Sequence record: NC_025430.1
Reading direction: 5' to 3' (one strand)
Source: Escherichia phage vB_EcoM-ep3
Length of the DNA: 42,351 nt
The notes under the pieces were generated by a model that saw only the letters and a list, made by a program, of their open reading frames with translations, was not told where the DNA came from and did not search any database. Shown in pieces: positions 756 to 42,270 of this stretch. The position numbers and the translations under genes are program-made. Position 1 is the stretch's first letter; each line of letters begins with the position of its first letter.

Positions 756-1143
756 GTTCTGCCACCGTGCATTTTGGATGGTGGAAGCCGTCCTGGTGCT
801 GGCACACAGGGCAGCAATCGCGCGGCTGTTCGTTGTCGTTACCAGCTACCGGATGGCGGCCACGTTCCAGCGCGATGACCGCGCCAGCCAGGTAGTTGAT
901 TGCGCCTAACAGTTCCGCCACATCGCGGCCCGCTGGAAGGCGCTGTGATTCCTGCGCTTTCTTCGCTGCCTGGCCGAGTGCGAACCCTGGCCCGTACAGG
1001 TCAATCAGTTTTTGCATGGGCTGCTGGTCAAACGGCTTGTTTACCGCGTGACGTTCGTGGCCTTTGCCACTGGCAGCCTGCGCAAATGCCCGGTCAAGTA
1101 CATCGCGCAGTGATTCATATCCGTTAGCGGGTGGTCGTGTCAT
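748..1143 (-). CDS. Hypothetical early protein
   Basis: 131 aa with a conserved-looking GKGHERH segment and a C-terminal CCPVC...H..C cluster. It is operon-packed with its neighbours. No function can be assigned from sequence alone. Confidence 0.6.
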   Translation of the reverse strand: MTRPPANGYESLRDVLDRAFAQAASGKGHERHAVNKPFDQQPMQKLIDLYGPGFALGQAAKKAQESQRLPAGRDVAELLGAINYLAGAVIALERGRHPVAGNDNEQPRDCCPVCQHQDGFHHPKCTVAEHG

Positions 1144-1351
1144 TGTCGTTTGCTCCGATCATGTGTTTTGCTTCATACGCTTCCACGCTGGTGATGGAGT
1201 AGCGAACGCGTGAGCCAAATTTTGTATAGGCTGGCCCTTTACCTTTGTTGCGCCAGTTCGCCAGGGTTCCGGTGGTAACTGCGCCATTCCAGCGCAGCAC
1301 CAGTTCCTGTGGCGTCAGATACGTGCTTTGTTTCTGTGCCGGTTGTGCCAT
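1124..1351 (-). CDS. Excisionase/AlpA-family helix-turn-helix DNA-binding protein
   Basis: 75 aa. YLTPQELVLRWNGAVTTGTLANWRNKGKGPAYTKFGSRVRY matches the excisionase-type HTH pattern (lt..El...tl..wr..g.gP...G.rvrY). Confidence 0.6.
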   Translation of the reverse strand: MAQPAQKQSTYLTPQELVLRWNGAVTTGTLANWRNKGKGPAYTKFGSRVRYSITSVEAYEAKHMIGANDNDTTTR

Positions 1352-2381: not shown

Positions 2382-3524
2382 TTAAGCCGCACCAACCAGG
2401 TGGGCGTTTTTGTTGGCGTGCCACGCTGGCAGGCTGATGGTCTGGATTTTATCGCCGTATCCAGGCCAAACACCTGTGCGCACGCATTCAGCGTAGACAC
2501 GCAAATCATGCTGGTATTGTGCGCGGCCAATTTCTACGCCTTCGCTATCCAGTACATAAACACCAACTGCGTAAGGCGGTTTTTTCTCAACGGCGATAAA
2601 CGCAAAGTGTTTAGGATAACCACGCCAGAAATCAGGGCGGCAGCGGCACAGAACACCGGTCACCGGATCAGTCCAGTAAACTGATAATTCTGCTTTGCCT
2701 TCGTGCGGAGGCGTGCACTTGCCCTGTTCCAGAGCCAGACGCGTGCCGTCCATGTAGTATGCGTGTTGCACGTCATAGCGCCAGTTGGCGATTGATTTTG
2801 CGAACCCTTCCGGGCTGGCATCTTCGGTGGTTTTCAAGTCACCAATGATGTCTTTGACGTGGTGCAGGATAGCGAACGCTGCCGGATGATTCATTACCGC
2901 GTCACGCATGGCAAAAATTTGTTCAAACGCTTCCGGTGATAGCACTTTGCGTTCGCTGTTATTGCGCTGCCATTCTTCCAGCACATCTGACCACAGTGTG
3001 ACTTCAACGCCGTTGGCGCGCAGCAGGTTGGCCAGCTCATGACGGCTGCCGCTGGTGGATAGTTTGCCAGGACGGTCAATATTCAACTGGTTGATGATTT
3101 CTTTCAGGTCTGGCGCTTTCATCGCGTTAAGCTGTTCAGTAGTCCAGGTTTCAACAGGCTGGTTTTCCAGGATGCGTTCAACCAGTTCGCCTTTGTTGCC
3201 ACCAGTCAGCAGCTTAGGCAGGCGGCCTTCGTTCAGCTTGTTGACCATTTCCACCAGCACTTCACGGTCATCAATAGCATCAGGCACATCAGGACGGCGC
3301 AGCGCCAGGCAATAGGTTTTTGCGAATTCTTCCGGTTCAAGAATTGCCATATGCACAGCCGTGCCGATTTCCTGCGCTGGTGTTGGCGTGCGGTCATTAG
3401 CAGCAGTCACAACAGCGTTGTAGTGCATCGGGCTGCGGTGCACCAAATCCAGGCCAGATTTACTGATGCCTGGTCCGCCGTGGTATTCAGCGTTGGGAAT
3501 ACCTTCGTAAACTCCTGGTTTCAT
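2382..3524 (-). CDS. PD-(D/E)XK (Cas4/RecB-like) exonuclease
   Basis: Motifs IIGDLKTTED and QHAYY, with N-terminus MKPGVYEGIPNAEYHG. The start is placed at ATG 3524, 7 nt after a GAGG RBS. The ORF-track start at 3539 lacks an RBS. Confidence 0.7.
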   Translation of the reverse strand: MKPGVYEGIPNAEYHGGPGISKSGLDLVHRSPMHYNAVVTAANDRTPTPAQEIGTAVHMAILEPEEFAKTYCLALRRPDVPDAIDDREVLVEMVNKLNEGRLPKLLTGGNKGELVERILENQPVETWTTEQLNAMKAPDLKEIINQLNIDRPGKLSTSGSRHELANLLRANGVEVTLWSDVLEEWQRNNSERKVLSPEAFEQIFAMRDAVMNHPAAFAILHHVKDIIGDLKTTEDASPEGFAKSIANWRYDVQHAYYMDGTRLALEQGKCTPPHEGKAELSVYWTDPVTGVLCRCRPDFWRGYPKHFAFIAVEKKPPYAVGVYVLDSEGVEIGRAQYQHDLRVYAECVRTGVWPGYGDKIQTISLPAWHANKNAHLVGAA

Positions 3525-3575
3525 TATGTTACCTCGCAATTATTATTTAACATGAATTCGGATTAACTGCGGTGA

Positions 3576-3605
3576 ATTATGGCTGACGTGTTGTTATACT
3601 GTCAA
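3576..3605 (-). promoter_or_regulatory. Candidate leftward early promoter
   Basis: Minus strand TTGACA (3605-3600), 18-nt spacer, CATAAT (3581-3576). It lies about 50 nt upstream of the exonuclease start. Confidence 0.55.
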
Positions 3606-3703
3606 CTTATTTGTAACTAACATTGTTTAGATCAGCGTCACGCTCGCTAATCAACAAACCTTAGCTGTACATCAGCTATGCGTTTTTTGCACATCGCGGC
3701 TTG

Positions 3704-3715
3704 ATTGACGTCAAT
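3704..3715. promoter_or_regulatory. Perfect 12-bp palindrome ATTGACGTCAAT (possible operator)
   Basis: Self-complementary 12-mer 16 nt upstream of the -35 of the rightward promoter, in the divergent control region. Confidence 0.3.
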
Positions 3716-3730
3716 GAACATTACTACTGG

Positions 3731-3760
3731 TTGCAACGTCGCCATGTAGTAACATACAAT
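3731..3760 (+). promoter_or_regulatory. Candidate rightward early promoter
   Basis: TTGCAA (3731-3736), 18-nt spacer, TACAAT (3755-3760). It lies 38 nt upstream of the helicase ATG. Confidence 0.55.
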
Positions 3761-3797
3761 TGCGAATACTTTAAATGATGGCGAATGAACGATAATT

Positions 3798-5216
3798 ATG
3801 GGCGTAATACTTAGGGACTATCAATCCGACATTATCAATAAGGCGCGCCTTTCTATGCGGCGCAACCGCCGCGTGTTATTGCAGGCACCAACAGGCGCGG
3901 GCAAAACTGCGCTGGCGTCATACATGGCTGGGGAAACATCGGCCAAAGGCCAGCAGGTGTGGTTTATTTGCCACCGCGCTGAACTGGTATTACAGACCAG
4001 TTTGACATTCAGGAAGTTCGGCATTGACCACGGCTTTATTGCCGCAGGCTATCCCATGAACCTGCGCGCCGGGGTGCAGGTGTGCAGCATCGACACCCTG
4101 AAAAACCGCCTGCACACCCTGCCAGCTCCTAAGCTGGCCATCATGGACGAAGCGCACCACTGTGGCGCGGCTGGATGGGCGCGCGTCAACGCCTGGCTGT
4201 TCGAGAATGGCGCGTATGTAATCGGCCTGTCAGCCACGCCAAAGCGCCTGGACGGCACCGGCCTGGATGACCACTTTGATGACATCGTGTTGGGGCCATC
4301 GGTGCGCTGGCTGATGGATAACGGCCACCTGTCTGATTATCGCATGTTCTGCCCGGACATCCCTGACATGAAGGGTGTACGCAAACAGATGGGCGATTTC
4401 TCAAAAGGAGAAACCGCCGAGAAGATGGATAAGCCGAAACTAACCGGCAACATCATCAGCCACTGGCTGAAATACGCCAGGGGCATGAAAACGGTTGGCT
4501 TTGCGGTCAACATCGCGCACAGCCGCCACTTAACGCAGGCATTCATTGATTCAGGCATCCGCGCCGCGCACCTGGATGGCGGCACCGATAAGGCGGAACG
4601 CAAGCGCATCATTCAGGACTATGCCAACGACAACCTGGATGTGATTTTCAACGTGTCGCTGTTCGGTGAAGGTTTCGACCTGTCAGCTATCGCACAGACT
4701 GACGTGACGATTGACTGCCTGATTGACGCGCAGCCCACACAATCATTGTCGCTGGTTTTGCAGAAAGATGGCCGCGTGTTGCGACCGTCCAAAGGCAAAA
4801 CCGCCATCATCCTGGACCACGCAGGCAATGCGCTGCGTCATGGCTTCCCTGACGATGAACGGGAATGGTCACTGGCTGGCGATGATAGCGGCAGCAAATC
4901 CAGCAGTGCTGGTGGTCCACCGCCGCCAGTCATCTGCAAAGGCTGTTTCAACGCCATCCGCCGACCACTGCCGCCGAAGTGCCCGCACTGCCAGAAGGAA
5001 CTACAGGCCGAAGCCAAAGAAATTGAAGTGGCAGAAGGAGAACTGCGCGAAATGGACGAACGCGCCAAAGAAAGCCTGCGCGCCAAGATGAGGCGCGAGG
5101 AGGACGCTTGCAAGGATATTGGCGCACTTACTGCCCTGGCGATGAAACGCGGGCTGCCGAACCCATCAGGGTGGGCCATAGCGAAGATGGGTGGAAGAAG
5201 ATTTAAGCGCAAATAG
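3798..5216 (+). CDS. Superfamily-2 DEAD/DEAH-box DNA helicase with C-terminal zinc ribbon
   Basis: 472 aa. Motif I APTGAGKT, motif II MDEAHH, motif III SATP, motif VI QKDGRVLR, and C-terminal CKGC...CPHC. Confidence 0.85.
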   Translation: MGVILRDYQSDIINKARLSMRRNRRVLLQAPTGAGKTALASYMAGETSAKGQQVWFICHRAELVLQTSLTFRKFGIDHGFIAAGYPMNLRAGVQVCSIDTLKNRLHTLPAPKLAIMDEAHHCGAAGWARVNAWLFENGAYVIGLSATPKRLDGTGLDDHFDDIVLGPSVRWLMDNGHLSDYRMFCPDIPDMKGVRKQMGDFSKGETAEKMDKPKLTGNIISHWLKYARGMKTVGFAVNIAHSRHLTQAFIDSGIRAAHLDGGTDKAERKRIIQDYANDNLDVIFNVSLFGEGFDLSAIAQTDVTIDCLIDAQPTQSLSLVLQKDGRVLRPSKGKTAIILDHAGNALRHGFPDDEREWSLAGDDSGSKSSSAGGPPPPVICKGCFNAIRRPLPPKCPHCQKELQAEAKEIEVAEGELREMDERAKESLRAKMRREEDACKDIGALTALAMKRGLPNPSGWAIAKMGGRRFKRK

Positions 5217-38810: not shown

Positions 38811-39284
38811 ATGTGTTTATTACTTTCCCACTCTATCGCCGGAACCGGCGGACCGTACCCACAACCTAAAAATAACGGCTGGATTGATTGGCATGGTGGT
38901 GAATGTCCGGTGGATAGTGACGAAATTGTTGAGGTCAAATTCCGTGAACCTTGCCCGATTCATTTCAGTAATGACAGAGCAGGAGATTTTACATGGCTTC
39001 ATTATGGACATACCGCCGACATCATTGCTTACAGACTGGTGAACAAGCATGAATTAGAAACCGCTTGCATTGATGTGAAGCGCGATGCTGTCAAATCCAA
39101 TGATGCGCAGTTAGAAGCCGACCTGAATGACTGCATTGGCCAGCCGCAAAGCGATGACGATGCGCGTGATGAAATACTTTACGAACTGGCTAACTTTGCG
39201 GCCACTACAAAAACCAGTCTTGACATTGGTGTTGCCACAGAAATTGCAATTTGGCTTTCTGGCAAAGGTTATCGTAAACAATGA
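38811..39284 (+). CDS. Hypothetical accessory protein
   Basis: The start is placed at ATG 38811, 8 nt after GAGG; ATG 38805 is only 2 nt from the RBS. It contains GWIDWHGGECPVDSDEIVEVKFR...WLHYGHTADIIAYRLV and an acidic C-terminal half. Confidence 0.55.
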   Translation: MCLLLSHSIAGTGGPYPQPKNNGWIDWHGGECPVDSDEIVEVKFREPCPIHFSNDRAGDFTWLHYGHTADIIAYRLVNKHELETACIDVKRDAVKSNDAQLEADLNDCIGQPQSDDDARDEILYELANFAATTKTSLDIGVATEIAIWLSGKGYRKQ

Positions 39285-40557: not shown

Positions 40558-40779
40558 GTGAAACTGCGAAAAGTGGATGTGAAAGGAACCTATAACATCA
40601 GGTTCATCATTTCGATGACGGCAAGTGATGGCCGTGAGGCGTGCTGGTATCTTGAAACAGTAGAACGTTCTCTGAATAAAGCAGATAAGGGGAACTGGCG
40701 TAATGCAATAGCAGCCGATCTGCTACGAGGACGCCAGGCGCTGCGTGACATTATAAACAACCTAGCCGGTGAGGCGTAA
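40558..40779 (+). CDS. Hypothetical accessory protein
   Basis: GTG start 5 nt after AAGGGG; 73 aa. Confidence 0.5.
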   Translation: MKLRKVDVKGTYNIRFIISMTASDGREACWYLETVERSLNKADKGNWRNAIAADLLRGRQALRDIINNLAGEA

Positions 40780-40788
40780 GGGGATAGT

Positions 40789-40968
40789 GTGGAAGAAATA
40801 GAATACGTTGTAACACTGAAAATGGAAGATGGCGCGATGTATGAGGCTTTACGCGCCACCGCAACCAAAGATGGTGATCTATCTGTGCAGGCACCAGACC
40901 AGGAAGCCCTACTGGCAGTCCTGGATAAGATGCAGGAAATGATAGATTATATCCGTGAAAACATGTAA
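40789..40968 (+). CDS. Hypothetical accessory protein (59 aa, below the ORF-track cutoff)
   Basis: GTG start 5 nt after AAGGGG, in a junction nearly identical to the previous one. The product is VEEIEYVVTLKMEDGAMYEALRATATKDGDLSVQAPDQEALLAVLDKMQEMIDYIRENM. Confidence 0.5.
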   Translation: MEEIEYVVTLKMEDGAMYEALRATATKDGDLSVQAPDQEALLAVLDKMQEMIDYIRENM

Positions 40969-40974
40969 CACACA

Positions 40975-41000
40975 GCCCGCCTCTTCGGCGGGCTTTTTGT
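40975..41000 (+). terminator. Rho-independent terminator ending the rightward late/accessory genes
   Basis: GCCCGCC-TCTTC-GGCGGGC followed by TTTTTGTT. Confidence 0.8.
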
Positions 41001-41031
41001 TGGTGGCGACCCAGGAAGGAATCGAACCTGT
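41001..41031 (-). other. tRNA 3'-end fragment (T-loop, acceptor strand, CCA); not an intact tRNA
   Basis: Minus strand reads CAGGTTCGATTCCTTCCTGGGTCGCCACCA. The T-loop GGTTCGATTCC and the terminal CCA are present, but no matching 5' acceptor strand, D arm or anticodon arm lies upstream. Confidence 0.6.
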
Positions 41032-41563
41032 AACATACAGCTTATACTACCTGCCGCAGACGCGCGAGGCGATGAATAAATGGGAAATATTGTTGCGAAA
41101 TGCACTTGCGTGATATAGGATTAAATTGTCAGTTGTAGAGATTCACGCTGTCGAGAGATACACGATGACCGCCGTGAAAGGACGGCACACAACAGGTAAG
41201 AGCATTGAACCCGTAGACCTCGCGGATTTGGTGAAAGGTGCCGCGCATTGCTCTTTCCGTTGTGGTGAATGCGCAGGCTGATGCGCGACCAATGTATAAA
41301 CAGCGCTCATGGCAAGCAGTAACCAATCTGCGCCTCAAGACAGCGTCACTGGTAGTGCGGGCGCTCTAACCAGTAAGCCGGAGTTCAGCACCGGCCACCA
41401 CAACACGCGCCGTGATGCGCTTTTGCGAACACTTCCAACCACCAGGGTGTTACCTCGCAACGTGAAAGCGCATCGCAGTGCGACATTCGCACAGACTGGA
41501 ACTTACCAGACTAGTGATTCCAATAAGGCAGGTGATCTGTATCTCGCATCACAGCGTCACGTG

Positions 41564-41595
41564 ACACAAAACCCCGCTTAGGCGGGGTTTTTCTT
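41564..41595. terminator. Bidirectional rho-independent terminator (ends sprT-like gene on the - strand)
   Basis: A-rich run, then ACCCCGC-TTAG-GCGGGGT, then TTTTTC. The hairpin is flanked by an A-tract and a T-tract. Confidence 0.75.
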
Positions 41596-41598
41596 TGG

Positions 41599-42270
41599 TC
41601 ATTCGTCATCGCCTTCCGGAGTCATCGCGCCATGTTCCGGGCAGTGAGGCGGCCCGACCTCCAACCATTTTTGCGTTACCCGAACCGTGTAGCCGCATTC
41701 CTGGCATTCGCATTTTTTCAGCCTGGTGGTTTGCTTAGGCTTCGCCGTGGACGCACCGCCGACCGGTGCCACTTCGATTTCCTCCCCTTCATCATCGTCA
41801 CCGCCTTCATCCAGGCCGATGCGCAGGCGTGGCACTTTTATGGATATGCCACGGTCAAACGTCAGCTTGGCGTGCGGCATGGGGCCAAGTTCGTCCAGGA
41901 ACGGTTTGACGTACTCTTTGAATTTCTCGCCAGGCGTGGTGGCGGTCATCGGTCCATTCAGGCCAACAGCCTTGCACACAGTGGCAAACGCGCCCTTGTG
42001 GCCACAGTCAAAACCAACGGTGGCGTGCGTCAGTTCGTGCCACAGGTGGTTTGCGACCAGGTACGGTTCCACCTGGTCTGGCATGATGAATATTTCAAAG
42101 GTGTTGTCTGCACTGCACTTGCTGTGCCAGCACTGTGCCGCCGTACTGGACCGCGCGCCGCTGCTGCAAAAGCCAACTGACACCCGGAATTTTGGCATTT
42201 CATAGCCGAATTCTTTAAAACGCGGCGCAAACTTCGCCGCCAAAGCATTTAACCAACCTTCACGGTCCAT
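41599..42270 (-). CDS. SprT-like zinc metalloprotease-domain protein with C-terminal zinc ribbon
   Basis: 223 aa. HExxH motif (LWHELTHATV), an acidic linker (GGDDDEGEE) and C-terminal CECQECGYTVRV...HCPEHG. The RBS is GAGAGGA. Confidence 0.7.
   Translation of the reverse strand: MDREGWLNALAAKFAPRFKEFGYEMPKFRVSVGFCSSGARSSTAAQCWHSKCSADNTFEIFIMPDQVEPYLVANHLWHELTHATVGFDCGHKGAFATVCKAVGLNGPMTATTPGEKFKEYVKPFLDELGPMPHAKLTFDRGISIKVPRLRIGLDEGGDDDEGEEIEVAPVGGASTAKPKQTTRLKKCECQECGYTVRVTQKWLEVGPPHCPEHGAMTPEGDDE

What the first reader, a model, noticed from the sequence alone, without database searches (positions are those of the whole stretch)
41001..41031. tRNA 3'-end fragment (attP-like core) in a genome with no integrase
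The minus strand reads CAGGTTCGATTCCTTCCTGGGTCGCCACCA. This contains a canonical T-loop, the 3' T-stem, an acceptor 3' strand, a discriminator base and CCA. I cannot build the 5' acceptor strand, D arm or anticodon arm from the upstream 50 nt, and the 5' half of the T-stem pairs only 3 of 5. So this is a fragment of about 28-30 nt, not a gene.

Such fragments are the hallmark of the attP core in phages that integrate into tRNA genes. The position, after the gpD-type tail gene and a few accessory genes, is where P2-like phages carry attP and int. Yet the window contains no integrase, repressor, excisionase-integrase pair or transposase.

The options are a relic of a temperate ancestor, a captured host fragment, or a functional tRNA-like 3' end of a minus-strand transcript from the adjacent ORF-poor region.
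Basis: partly seen in the sequence, partly recalled or inferred. Interest (0 to 1): 0.6.

Follow-up and report, generated by a model that had tools for sequence, protein, structure and literature searches.

The report
Leftover stub of a deleted phage tRNA gene
The tRNA-like string is the decaying last 41 bases of a phage tRNA-Arg gene, left when one ~1.5-kb deletion removed the rest of that gene, the attachment site and nearly all of the integrase; it is an ordinary scar of a phage that lost the ability to integrate.

Summary
The sequence is real and not a chance match. It is not an attP core. The window is a Jilinvirus-type coliphage genome.

Close relatives (HeidiAbel, PT1, Alux-21, MQ-4, PPpW-3) carry this cassette at the same position: terminator, complete tRNA-Arg(UCU), a canonical attP, then a 403-aa tyrosine integrase. 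The attP has two co-varying arm-repeat pairs around a CCGC-CTTCTAA-GCGG core.

In the window one ~1.48-kb deletion joins tRNA position 37 directly to integrase codon 382. What remains is a 41-nt tRNA stub (41044..41004, minus strand) abutting 22 integrase codons (41045..41113, plus strand). The cI-like repressor is also gone.

The same scar occurs in ECO1230-10, ECOO78 and several assembled contigs, each decayed differently. In one the T-loop is destroyed, and another keeps only 17 nt. All keep the adjacent terminator. So the stub is neutral debris.

Loss of the integrase and repressor in this phage group is already published. One by-product is more interesting. The intact cassette in relatives has a 9-bp anticodon-loop core, no tRNA 3' half, and a full same-isotype tRNA. 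That looks like "tRNA-dependent lysogeny", shown so far only in actinobacteriophages. No integrated copy was found, so this is inference only.

The parts
41004..41044 (-). Relic of a phage tRNA-Arg(UCU) gene: gene positions 37-77 of 77 (third anticodon base, 3' anticodon stem, variable loop, T arm, 3' acceptor strand, discriminator G, CCA). Sequence TAAGCTGTATGTTACAGGTTCGATTCCTTCCTGGGTCGCCA.
   Evidence: Aligns without gaps to the 3' 41 nt of the intact tRNA of HeidiAbel, 36/41 identical. Intact homologues are called tRNA-Arg(tct) by ARAGORN in 14 relatives. No tRNA is called here. Two of five T-stem pairs are broken; fold z = -0.36.
41045..41113 (+). Integrase remnant: the last 22 codons plus stop (YYLPQTREAMNKWEILLRNALA*). 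Base 41045 (T) is the deletion junction. Both parental sequences have G at that position.
   Evidence: tblastn with the 403-aa HeidiAbel integrase finds only residues 383-403 in the whole window, at 41048..41110, 86% identity. Junction read.
40974..41003 (+). Intrinsic terminator: stem AGCCCGCC / GGCGGGCT, loop TCTTC, then TTTTTGTTGG. It ends the + strand tail/accessory operon (last gene 40789..40968). In intact relatives it also lies directly 3' of the tRNA on the - strand.
   Evidence: Terminator scan. Rfam leader-terminator partial matches on +. The stable hairpin explains the fold of 40970-41044, z = -2.73. The hairpin is present in every intact relative except PPpW-3 and in every scarred copy read through it.
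3525..3797 (.). Site of the missing cI-like repressor: a 273-bp gap between the exonuclease VIII gene (3524..2388, -) and the helicase gene (3798..5210, +). HeidiAbel has ~795 bp here, including a 180-aa cI-like repressor.
   Evidence: tblastn with the HeidiAbel cI-like repressor gives no hit in the window. Flanking genes located and the cI region shown to be absent.
1139..1351 (-). Retained MerR-type 'excisionase and transcriptional regulator' homologue. It is the only piece of the relatives' annotated integration/excision genes still intact.
   Evidence: tblastn, 98.6% identity over residues 1-71 of 73. Annotation as written in the HeidiAbel record.

Best explanation
The fragment is a deletion scar. 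The ancestor of this phage carried, between the tail-operon terminator and the early-left operon, a cassette of a complete tRNA-Arg(UCU) gene, a canonical attP and a tyrosine integrase gene. One deletion of about 1.48 kb removed tRNA positions 1-36 with its upstream region, the whole attP (both arm-repeat pairs and the core), and integrase codons 1-381. It occurred across a tiny microhomology: tRNA ...CTTA-GA... against int ...TTT-GA.... The 3' 41 nt of the tRNA became fused to the last 22 integrase codons. The cI-like repressor was lost separately. The stub has no promoter, no 5' partner strands and no function. It persists because it is short and young, and it lies against a terminator that is still needed. 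It is drifting toward randomness.

Shown: homology to intact tRNAs, the junction, absence of attP, int and cI, and variable decay in other carriers. Inferred: the microhomology mechanism, a single origin of the scar, and neutrality.
For: (1) Position-for-position homology to an intact 77-nt tRNA-Arg(tct) in HeidiAbel, Alux-21, PT1, MQ-4, Arya, PPpW-3 and metagenomic relatives. It has the same downstream terminator and upstream gene order.
(2) The intact copies are real tRNAs. In 9 distinct sequences 100% of 189 pair cells are paired, 8 pairs show compensatory double changes, and 0/500 shuffles reach this.
(3) The only integrase similarity in the window is residues 383-403, directly abutting the stub.
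(4) The same junction, including the odd T, occurs in ECO1230-10, L111 and L114-116. A variant occurs in ECOO78.
(5) Carriers decay differently. The window has TGTAG->TTCCT. ECO1230-10 has CCTGGAGTGG. L111 has lost the T-loop. L112 keeps only ~17 nt. The terminator hairpin is kept.
(6) Contigs encoding exactly the same 59-aa upstream protein still carry the full tRNA-attP-int cassette.
(7) The window has no attP core and only one chance-level arm-repeat match.
(8) Published: int and the cI-like repressor are 'deteriorated or absent' in some Jilinviruses (PMC11990801). Arya has an integrase pseudogene next to its Arg tRNA (PMC5754474).
Against: The 11-nt T-loop block GGTTCGATTCC is still perfect in the window, ECO1230-10, ECOO78 and L114-116. 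That could hint at constraint, but it is destroyed in L111 and deleted in L112. ECOO78's junction differs by ~4 nt on each side. So the scar either arose more than once at nearly the same place or drifted after one event. I could not decide which. No transcript data exist to exclude a minus-strand RNA ending here.
Confidence: 0.9

Rival explanations
1. The fragment is (or was) the attP core: the phage copy of a host tRNA 3' end at which an integrase crosses over, as in classical tRNA-integrating phages.
For: In more distant members of the same integrase family the DNA 160-215 nt upstream of int is exactly such a tRNA 3' half. An integrated element shows int, P arm, GCCTTCTAAGC, tRNA 3' half, then host genes.
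Against: In the clade to which this phage belongs the core is a different site. It is CCGC-CTTCTAA-GCGG at 173-189 nt from the int ATG, flanked on both sides by arm repeats that co-vary between phages. The tRNA is a complete gene beyond the P' arm. The core, both arms and int are all absent from the window. The stub retains only TAAG of the anticodon loop.
Confidence: 0.03
2. It is a piece of host tRNA DNA captured by the phage, for example by aberrant excision or illegitimate recombination.
For: tRNA-Arg(UCU) genes of E. coli resemble the phage tRNA at ~77-84% identity.
Against: The stub is 36/41 identical to the phage-lineage tRNA and only 28/41 to E. coli K-12 argU. The intact gene sits at the same locus in phages of Escherichia, Salmonella, Serratia, Enterobacter and Pseudomonas. 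That indicates vertical inheritance within the phage group. A megablast of the HeidiAbel tRNA-attP region found nothing in 5,426 complete E. coli genomes.
Confidence: 0.03
3. It is a functional tRNA-like 3' end (T arm plus CCA) of a minus-strand transcript from the adjacent ORF-poor region.
For: The stub lies just 5' of a hairpin on the minus strand, and the T-loop and CCA are intact in this genome.
Against: The predicted fold does not form a T arm, z = -0.36, and 2 of 5 T-stem pairs are broken. The early-left operon has its own terminator at 41568-41591. The only promoter-like match in 40700-41700 is at chance level, 1 found against 1.1 expected. The hairpin's T-tract is on the + strand. L111 and L112 have lost the T-loop or T-arm.
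Confidence: 0.03
4. The segment is part of a protein-coding gene. Mechanical ORFs 40955..41113 (+, 52 aa) and 40947..41105 (-, 52 aa) span it.
For: Both ORFs are open. ECOO78's record annotates a hypothetical protein ending just upstream of its scar.
Against: The + ORF starts inside the terminator region, reads the antisense of the tRNA stub and ends with the integrase tail, so it is a chimera created by the deletion. Scar carriers differ by indels here (L111, L112), and ECOO78 has a stop inside the int tail.
Confidence: 0.01

Closest known systems
Decay of the lysogeny module in Jilinvirus/Iiscvirinae phages (Humolli et al. 2025, PLoS Biol, PMC11990801; Tikhe et al. 2018, Genome Announc, PMC5754474)
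   Same: Same phage group and same locus. Integrase and cI-like repressor are intact in HeidiAbel, PT1 and the Pseudomonas phages, and 'deteriorated or absent' in others. Arya has an integrase pseudogene beside its Arg tRNA. ECO1230-10 and ep3 are described as having no integrase.
   Different: In the text I read, those papers do not describe the tRNA as truncated in the int-less phages, the exact junction, the attP architecture, or the series of decaying scar alleles.
tRNA-dependent lysogeny (Guerrero-Bustamante & Hatfull 2024, mBio, PMC10865867; mycobacteriophage Fionnbharth and other actinobacteriophages)
   Same: The intact cassette in this phage's relatives has the same parts. These are a lambda-like tyrosine integrase with an arm-binding domain, pairs of arm sites flanking a short common core inside a tRNA gene, no tRNA 3' half to rebuild the target, and a complete phage tRNA of the same isotype.
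   Different: Integration was not observed for any member of this clade. HeidiAbel makes clear plaques without lysogens. The hosts are Proteobacteria, the target would be the anticodon loop of tRNA-Arg(UCU), and here the tRNA lies immediately next to attP. The window itself has lost every component.
Classical attP carrying a tRNA 3' half with anticodon-loop crossover, as catalogued for tRNA-targeting tyrosine integrases (Williams 2002, Nucleic Acids Res, from my own knowledge; Islander database paper PMC4383910 listed)
   Same: More distant members of the same integrase family have exactly this layout. A T-loop...CCA fragment lies 160-215 nt upstream of int, and an integrated example has the host flank. 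A bare tRNA 3' fragment in a phage normally signals this.
   Different: Here the fragment derives from a complete tRNA gene truncated by deletion. It has no integrase, arm sites or core beside it.

Membership tests
Functional tRNA gene | Complete cloverleaf (acceptor, D, anticodon and T arms) recognised by tRNA detectors or covariance models | tested here: not met
   ARAGORN finds 0 genes in the window. Rfam finds no tRNA at gathering score or at E<=10. Only gene positions 37-77 are present.
Functional tRNA gene | Helices maintained by base pairing | tested here: not met
   The T stem is ACAGG/CCTTC, with 3 of 5 pairs. The acceptor 3' strand has no partner. Fold z = -0.36. Intact relatives show 100% pairing with 8 covarying pairs.
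attP of a tRNA-integrating phage | Adjacent integrase gene | tested here: not met
   Only residues 383-403 of 403 remain.
attP of a tRNA-integrating phage | Arm-type integrase binding repeats flanking a core | tested here: not met
   The clade's arm motif has one 2-mismatch match, inside a coding region at 38853-38866, and 22 of 100 shuffles do as well. The core AACCGCCTTCTAAGCGG has no match at up to 3 mismatches.
attP of a tRNA-integrating phage | Identity to a host tRNA extending beyond the universal T-loop | tested here: not met
   28/41 identity to E. coli argU against 36/41 to the phage tRNA. No close copy of the relatives' tRNA-attP region in 5,426 E. coli genomes. Other hosts were not tested exhaustively.
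Pseudogene / deletion relic | Intact homologue at the same locus in close relatives | tested here: met
   Contigs with the identical upstream 59-aa protein carry the intact cassette.
Pseudogene / deletion relic | Different, non-compensated changes and further deletions among carriers (no purifying selection) | tested here: met
   The window, ECO1230-10, ECOO78, L111, L112 and L114-116 all differ. The T-loop is lost in L111 and the T arm in L112.
tRNA-dependent lysogeny cassette (applies to the intact relatives; the window would be its scar) | Tyrosine integrase with an arm-binding domain and an attP with arm sites around a short core | tested here: met
   The precomputed Pfam domains PF13356 and PF00589 are listed for nearly all of the homologues. 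The architecture is conserved, with arm repeats co-varying on both arms. This holds in relatives only.
tRNA-dependent lysogeny cassette (applies to the intact relatives; the window would be its scar) | attB lies in a host tRNA gene and shares only ~10 bp with attP, so the tRNA is not rebuilt | tested here: inconclusive
   The core shares exactly 9 bp (CCTTCTAAG) with the argU anticodon loop and is followed by non-tRNA sequence. Family members integrate in anticodon loops. No attL/attR of this clade was found.
tRNA-dependent lysogeny cassette (applies to the intact relatives; the window would be its scar) | [quoted passage not shown] | tested here: met
   tRNA-Arg(tct) in all 14 intact relatives, with strong covariation support. 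This holds in relatives only. In the window the gene is truncated.
tRNA-dependent lysogeny cassette (applies to the intact relatives; the window would be its scar) | Phage tRNA is required for survival of lysogens | not testable with these tools
   Needs genetics, as done for Fionnbharth.

The most novel reading that the evidence does not exclude
The cassette whose scar is seen here may be a tRNA-dependent-lysogeny module. It comprises a tyrosine integrase, an attP whose core is only a 9-bp mimic of the tRNA-Arg(UCU) anticodon loop, and a complete tRNA-Arg(UCU) immediately beside it. On this reading integration would split the host's single AGA-decoding tRNA gene (argU in E. coli), and the phage copy would replace it. 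This would be the first such case in phages of Proteobacteria. It would also explain why tRNA, attP and int sit together, so that a single deletion can remove all three, as happened in the window. The window itself only preserves the scar.
Probability: 0.4. Interest if true: 0.5.

Novelty: already known. Interest (0 to 1): 0.2.

Why it matters
For this window it matters little. The string should be annotated as a tRNA-Arg pseudogene or deletion scar plus an integrase remnant, not as an attachment site or an RNA gene. It gives sequence-level evidence that this lytic coliphage descends from a temperate-type ancestor. That is relevant to safety claims for therapeutic Jilinviruses such as ECO1230-10: with attP, int and cI all missing, the phage lacks what it would need to integrate or to establish repression. 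The series of differently decayed scars is a small, clean example of neutral decay next to a conserved terminator. The wider value lies in the relatives. Their intact cassette is a testable candidate for tRNA-dependent lysogeny outside the Actinobacteria. It also bears on the 'enigmatic lifestyle' of this phage group noted by Humolli et al.

Tried and rejected
- Intact or cryptic tRNA: ARAGORN and Rfam at gathering and permissive thresholds found none. The weak Rfam hits (Trp/Phe/Thr leaders, P9, asX2) only match the terminator hairpin.
- Prophage copies to map attL/attR all failed. Megablast of the HeidiAbel tRNA-attP region against 5,426 complete E. coli genomes found nothing. The integrase against one genome per species found nothing. 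The integrase profile against the same set found only distant relatives. About 80 clusters of integrases at >=70% identity all lie on contigs <=44 kb. The published 'E. coli prophage' contig AATBGZ010000031 has an unsplit attP. The pattern for the P' side of the core gave 0 metagenome hits and 1 unintegrated viral contig.
- The exact window-type junction gave 0 hits in IMG/VR. Look-up of the window's SprT-like protein found nothing on record.
- I considered integrase-catalysed self-deletion. The window's deletion ends in the tRNA anticodon loop, and Arya's ends exactly at the attP core. The int-side sequence (agTCgAAcCGG) resembles the core only loosely, and a 2-5-nt microhomology explains the junction equally well. 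I left this as speculation.
- I considered that the spacer after the attP core is a decayed tRNA 3' half. By eye it is ~40% identical, which is not convincing, so I did not pursue it.
- I considered that the tRNA serves lytic-phase translation. AGA is only 6.1% of Arg codons, 3.7 per 1000, and the phage grows without the tRNA. That weighs against a strong need.
- I could not confirm from the literature held here my recollection that the window is coliphage vB_EcoM-ep3.
- My script gave the deletion as 1,482 bp. Recounting across the microhomology gives 1,483 bp, so I quote ~1.48 kb.

Full report
**1. Observation**

A T-loop-to-CCA motif (GGTTCGANTCC-N11-CCA) occurs once in the 42,351-bp window. 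It occurred in none of 100 shuffles. No detector calls a tRNA:
- ARAGORN finds none in the whole window.
- Rfam finds none at gathering score.
- A permissive Rfam scan of 40600-41500 returns only sub-threshold hits, and the strongest of them align mainly to the GC-rich hairpin next door.

**2. What the genome is**

The window is a complete Jilinvirus-type (Iiscvirinae) myophage genome. Its first 25 kb are 92-95% identical to Escherichia phages Alux-21 and ECO1230-10 and Salmonella phage PT1. The region around the finding matches ECOO78, ECO1230-10, HeidiAbel (Bas97), Arya and PT1. I recall that coliphage vB_EcoM-ep3 has exactly this length, but I could not verify that here.

**3. What lies at this position in relatives**

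HeidiAbel, Alux-21, PT1, MQ-4 and PPpW-3 carry the following, in the same gene order after the gpD-like tail gene, the ParB-like gene and small ORFs:
- a terminator hairpin;
- a complete 77-nt tRNA-Arg(UCU) on the minus strand;
- about 300 bp of non-coding DNA;
- a 403-aa tyrosine integrase on the plus strand.

This arrangement is shown. The E. coli assembly contig AATBGZ010000031 and several metagenomic contigs have it too.

The intact tRNAs are under selection as tRNAs. In 9 distinct sequences all 189 pair cells of the cloverleaf are paired. Eight pairs show compensatory double changes, and no shuffle or slid register comes close.

**4. The junction in the window**

tblastn with the HeidiAbel integrase finds only residues 383-403 in the whole window. 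They lie at 41048..41110 on the plus strand, directly abutting the tRNA fragment.

Read on the plus strand, the junction is ...CCTGTAACATACAGCTTA | T | ACTACCTGCCGCAG.... That is the antisense of the tRNA up to gene position 37 (the third anticodon base), then one T, then integrase codon 382 onward. Both parental sequences have G at the odd T and share GA there. A 2-5-nt microhomology is therefore enough to explain the break; this is inference.

Relative to HeidiAbel, PT1 and Alux-21 about 1.48 kb is missing. The missing DNA comprises tRNA positions 1-36, the conserved sequence upstream of the tRNA, the entire attP and integrase codons 1-381.

The remaining tRNA piece (41044..41004) is 36/41 identical to the HeidiAbel tRNA. 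Four of the five differences cluster in the 3' T-stem/acceptor junction (TGTAG to TTCCT) and break two T-stem pairs. Alone it folds no better than shuffled sequence (z = -0.36). Only the neighbouring hairpin is stable.

**5. Where attP really is**

Across 13 intact members of the clade, the DNA between the int ATG and the tRNA has a canonical lambda-type layout:
- **P arm:** a pair of direct arm-type repeats next to the ATG.
- **Core:** an inverted-repeat core, CCGC-CTTCTAA-GCGG (or GCAG), at a fixed 173-189 nt from the ATG in 12 of the 13 (L016 has no exact CTTCTAA at that position).
- **P' arm:** a second pair of the same repeats 70-85 nt further on.

The repeat sequence changes between phages (GGGTAYGG, GGGTGCAC, GGGTGTAC), and it changes on both arms together. 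That marks them as integrase arm sites and marks the site between them as the core.

The complete tRNA lies beyond the P' arm. It is next to attP and is not its core. The window has no core match at up to 3 mismatches and only one chance-level arm-like match.

In members at 43-56% identity, a bare tRNA 3' half (Gly, Arg-ACG, Lys and others) lies 160-215 nt upstream of int. An integrated element shows int, P arm, GCCTTCTAAGC, tRNA 3' half and then host genes, so crossover is in the anticodon loop.

**6. The stub is decaying**

The same scar is present in several other genomes:
- **ECO1230-10:** identical junction, including the odd T.
- **ECOO78:** the junction differs by ~4 nt on each side.
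- **L111:** shares the window's CCTTCCTGGGTCGCCA, but its T-loop is destroyed.
- **L112:** only ~17 nt of the tRNA and a shorter int tail remain.
- **L114-116:** carry other substitutions.

These are shown. The terminator hairpin is kept wherever the sequence was read through it: the window, ECO1230-10, ECOO78 and the L111-L116 contigs. One allele has a single stem mismatch.

Contigs that encode exactly the same 59-aa protein as the window's gene 40789..40968 still carry the full tRNA-attP-int cassette. So scarred and intact alleles circulate in near-identical backgrounds.

The simplest reading is one old deletion, spread by recombination and then drifting. Recurrence at the same microhomology cannot be excluded.

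**7. Rest of the lysogeny module**

- The cI-like repressor of HeidiAbel has no match in the window. The exonuclease VIII-helicase gap is 273 bp, against ~795 bp in HeidiAbel.
- The MerR-type 'excisionase/regulator' is retained at 98.6% identity.

This agrees with published statements. Integrase and cI-like repressor are intact in some Jilinviruses and 'deteriorated or absent' in others (PMC11990801). Arya has an integrase pseudogene beside its Arg tRNA, while ECO1230-10 and ep3 lack integrase (PMC5754474).

**8. Rival readings**

- **Host capture:** the stub is closer to the phage tRNA (36/41) than to E. coli argU (28/41). The whole phage tRNA is only 59/77 identical to argU.
- **Functional tRNA-like 3' end of a minus-strand RNA:** the early-left operon has its own terminator at 41568-41591. 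The only promoter-like match is at chance level. The hairpin's T-tract is on the plus strand. The T arm is lost in other carriers.
- **Coding:** the two 52-aa ORFs across the site are chimeras made by the deletion. Indels in other carriers break them.

**9. Comparison with known systems**

The scar itself is an ordinary pseudogene.

The cassette it came from resembles tRNA-dependent lysogeny (Guerrero-Bustamante & Hatfull 2024, PMC10865867). It has a lambda-like integrase, paired arm sites around a short common core inside a tRNA gene, no 3' half to rebuild the target, and a phage tRNA of the same isotype.

Here the core shares exactly 9 bp (CCTTCTAAG) with the anticodon loop of E. coli argU. 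The phage tRNA is Arg(UCU) in every intact relative. AGA usage in the window is unremarkable, at 6.1% of Arg codons. The phage manages without the tRNA, which fits a lysogeny role better than a translational one.

Integration has not been seen, however:
- No prophage copy in 5,426 complete E. coli genomes.
- All ~80 clusters of close integrase homologues sit on contigs <=44 kb.
- The cited 'E. coli prophage' contig has an unsplit attP.
- HeidiAbel forms clear plaques without lysogens.

Membership in that system is therefore inferred for the relatives. It does not apply to the window, which has lost every component.

**10. Verdict**

Loss of the lysogeny genes in this phage group is already in the literature. 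The truncated tRNA, the exact junction and the allelic decay series are small additions. Interest is low for the finding itself. The candidate tRNA-dependent lysogeny cassette in the relatives is a moderately interesting by-product.

Noticed in passing
window 41263-41400: A sharply bounded ~140-bp segment is 96-97% identical to unannotated DNA in 258 of 5,426 complete E. coli genomes and in many unrelated temperate phages (P22-like IME10, Stx2c phages, Gally, Klebsiella phages). In IME10 and an E. coli NRG 857C prophage it lies ~230 nt downstream of the cI/LexA-type repressor gene. It contains a 33-aa ORF (MNEQADARPMYKQRSWQAVTNLRLKTASLVVRAL in IME10; the window has GTG and an upstream-extended 43-aa ORF 41238..41369), followed by the hairpin GCCGG-AGTTCAGCA-CCGGC. 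Fold z-scores are unremarkable (-1.06 and -0.66) and there is no Rfam match. It could be a small mobile moron, a micro-protein gene or an RNA.
   Followed up: partly
window 41183-41272: A ~90-bp segment is 95-97% identical to unannotated intergenic DNA of Skatevirus-type Salmonella phages (SeSz-2, LPSTLL, D10 and others) and of an Acinetobacter phage. In SeSz-2 it lies next to the major tail protein gene. With the 140-bp element, this makes 41114-41600 a patchwork of short segments shared with unrelated phages.
   Followed up: no
window 41403-41621 (-): The homologue of HeidiAbel's annotated 86-aa hypothetical gene Bas97_0031 has an in-frame stop in the window (...YWNH*SGKF...). It overlaps a strong bidirectional terminator at 41568-41591 that follows the SprT-like gene (41599..42270, -). 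The annotated gene may not be real, or it is a pseudogene here.
   Followed up: partly
L001 (Arya) ~4232-4245; L002 (HeidiAbel) core ~2684-2698: Arya's integrase pseudogene results from a different deletion. One end lies exactly at the attP core: CCTTCTAAGC is retained with the P' arm and the tRNA, and it is fused to int codon ~335. The published 43-aa estimate understates the remnant, which aligns over residues 330-403. Two independent deletions in this locus end in CTTCTAA-type sequences (the attP core in Arya, the tRNA anticodon loop in the window). This might reflect integrase-mediated breakage.
   Followed up: partly
L005 (Klebsiella phage KA2-1) ~1630-1830 and 3001-3085: KA2-1 belongs to the same phage group but has a different integration module. 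Its integrase is 51% identical, and a bare tRNA 3' half (GTTCGAATCCTTTCGGGCGCGCCA, Arg-ACG type) lies 193 nt upstream, with no complete tRNA. Even so, the window's int tail and the sequence just downstream are most similar to KA2-1 (91.8%). This shows module swapping and mosaicism at the locus.
   Followed up: partly
L096 (E. coli GCA_012697465.1 contig AATBGZ010000031, 42,429 bp); proteins P0001-P0083: The contig cited in the literature as an exemplary E. coli prophage of this group is one phage-genome length. It has attP unsplit and int in the middle, so it is not integrated at attP. All close integrase homologues (>=70% identity, ~80 clusters from isolate and metagenome assemblies) are on contigs of at most ~44 kb. 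This suggests these phages occur as free or episomal genomes and not as integrated prophages.
   Followed up: partly
L097 (Logan SRR31227328 contig, 42,351 bp): A contig of exactly the window's length carries an intact integrase (95% identical to HeidiAbel's) and a divergent tRNA-Arg(UCU) body (anticodon stem CTGA/TCAG). Its attP core is unchanged. So the core does not track the neighbouring phage tRNA's stem sequence.
   Followed up: no
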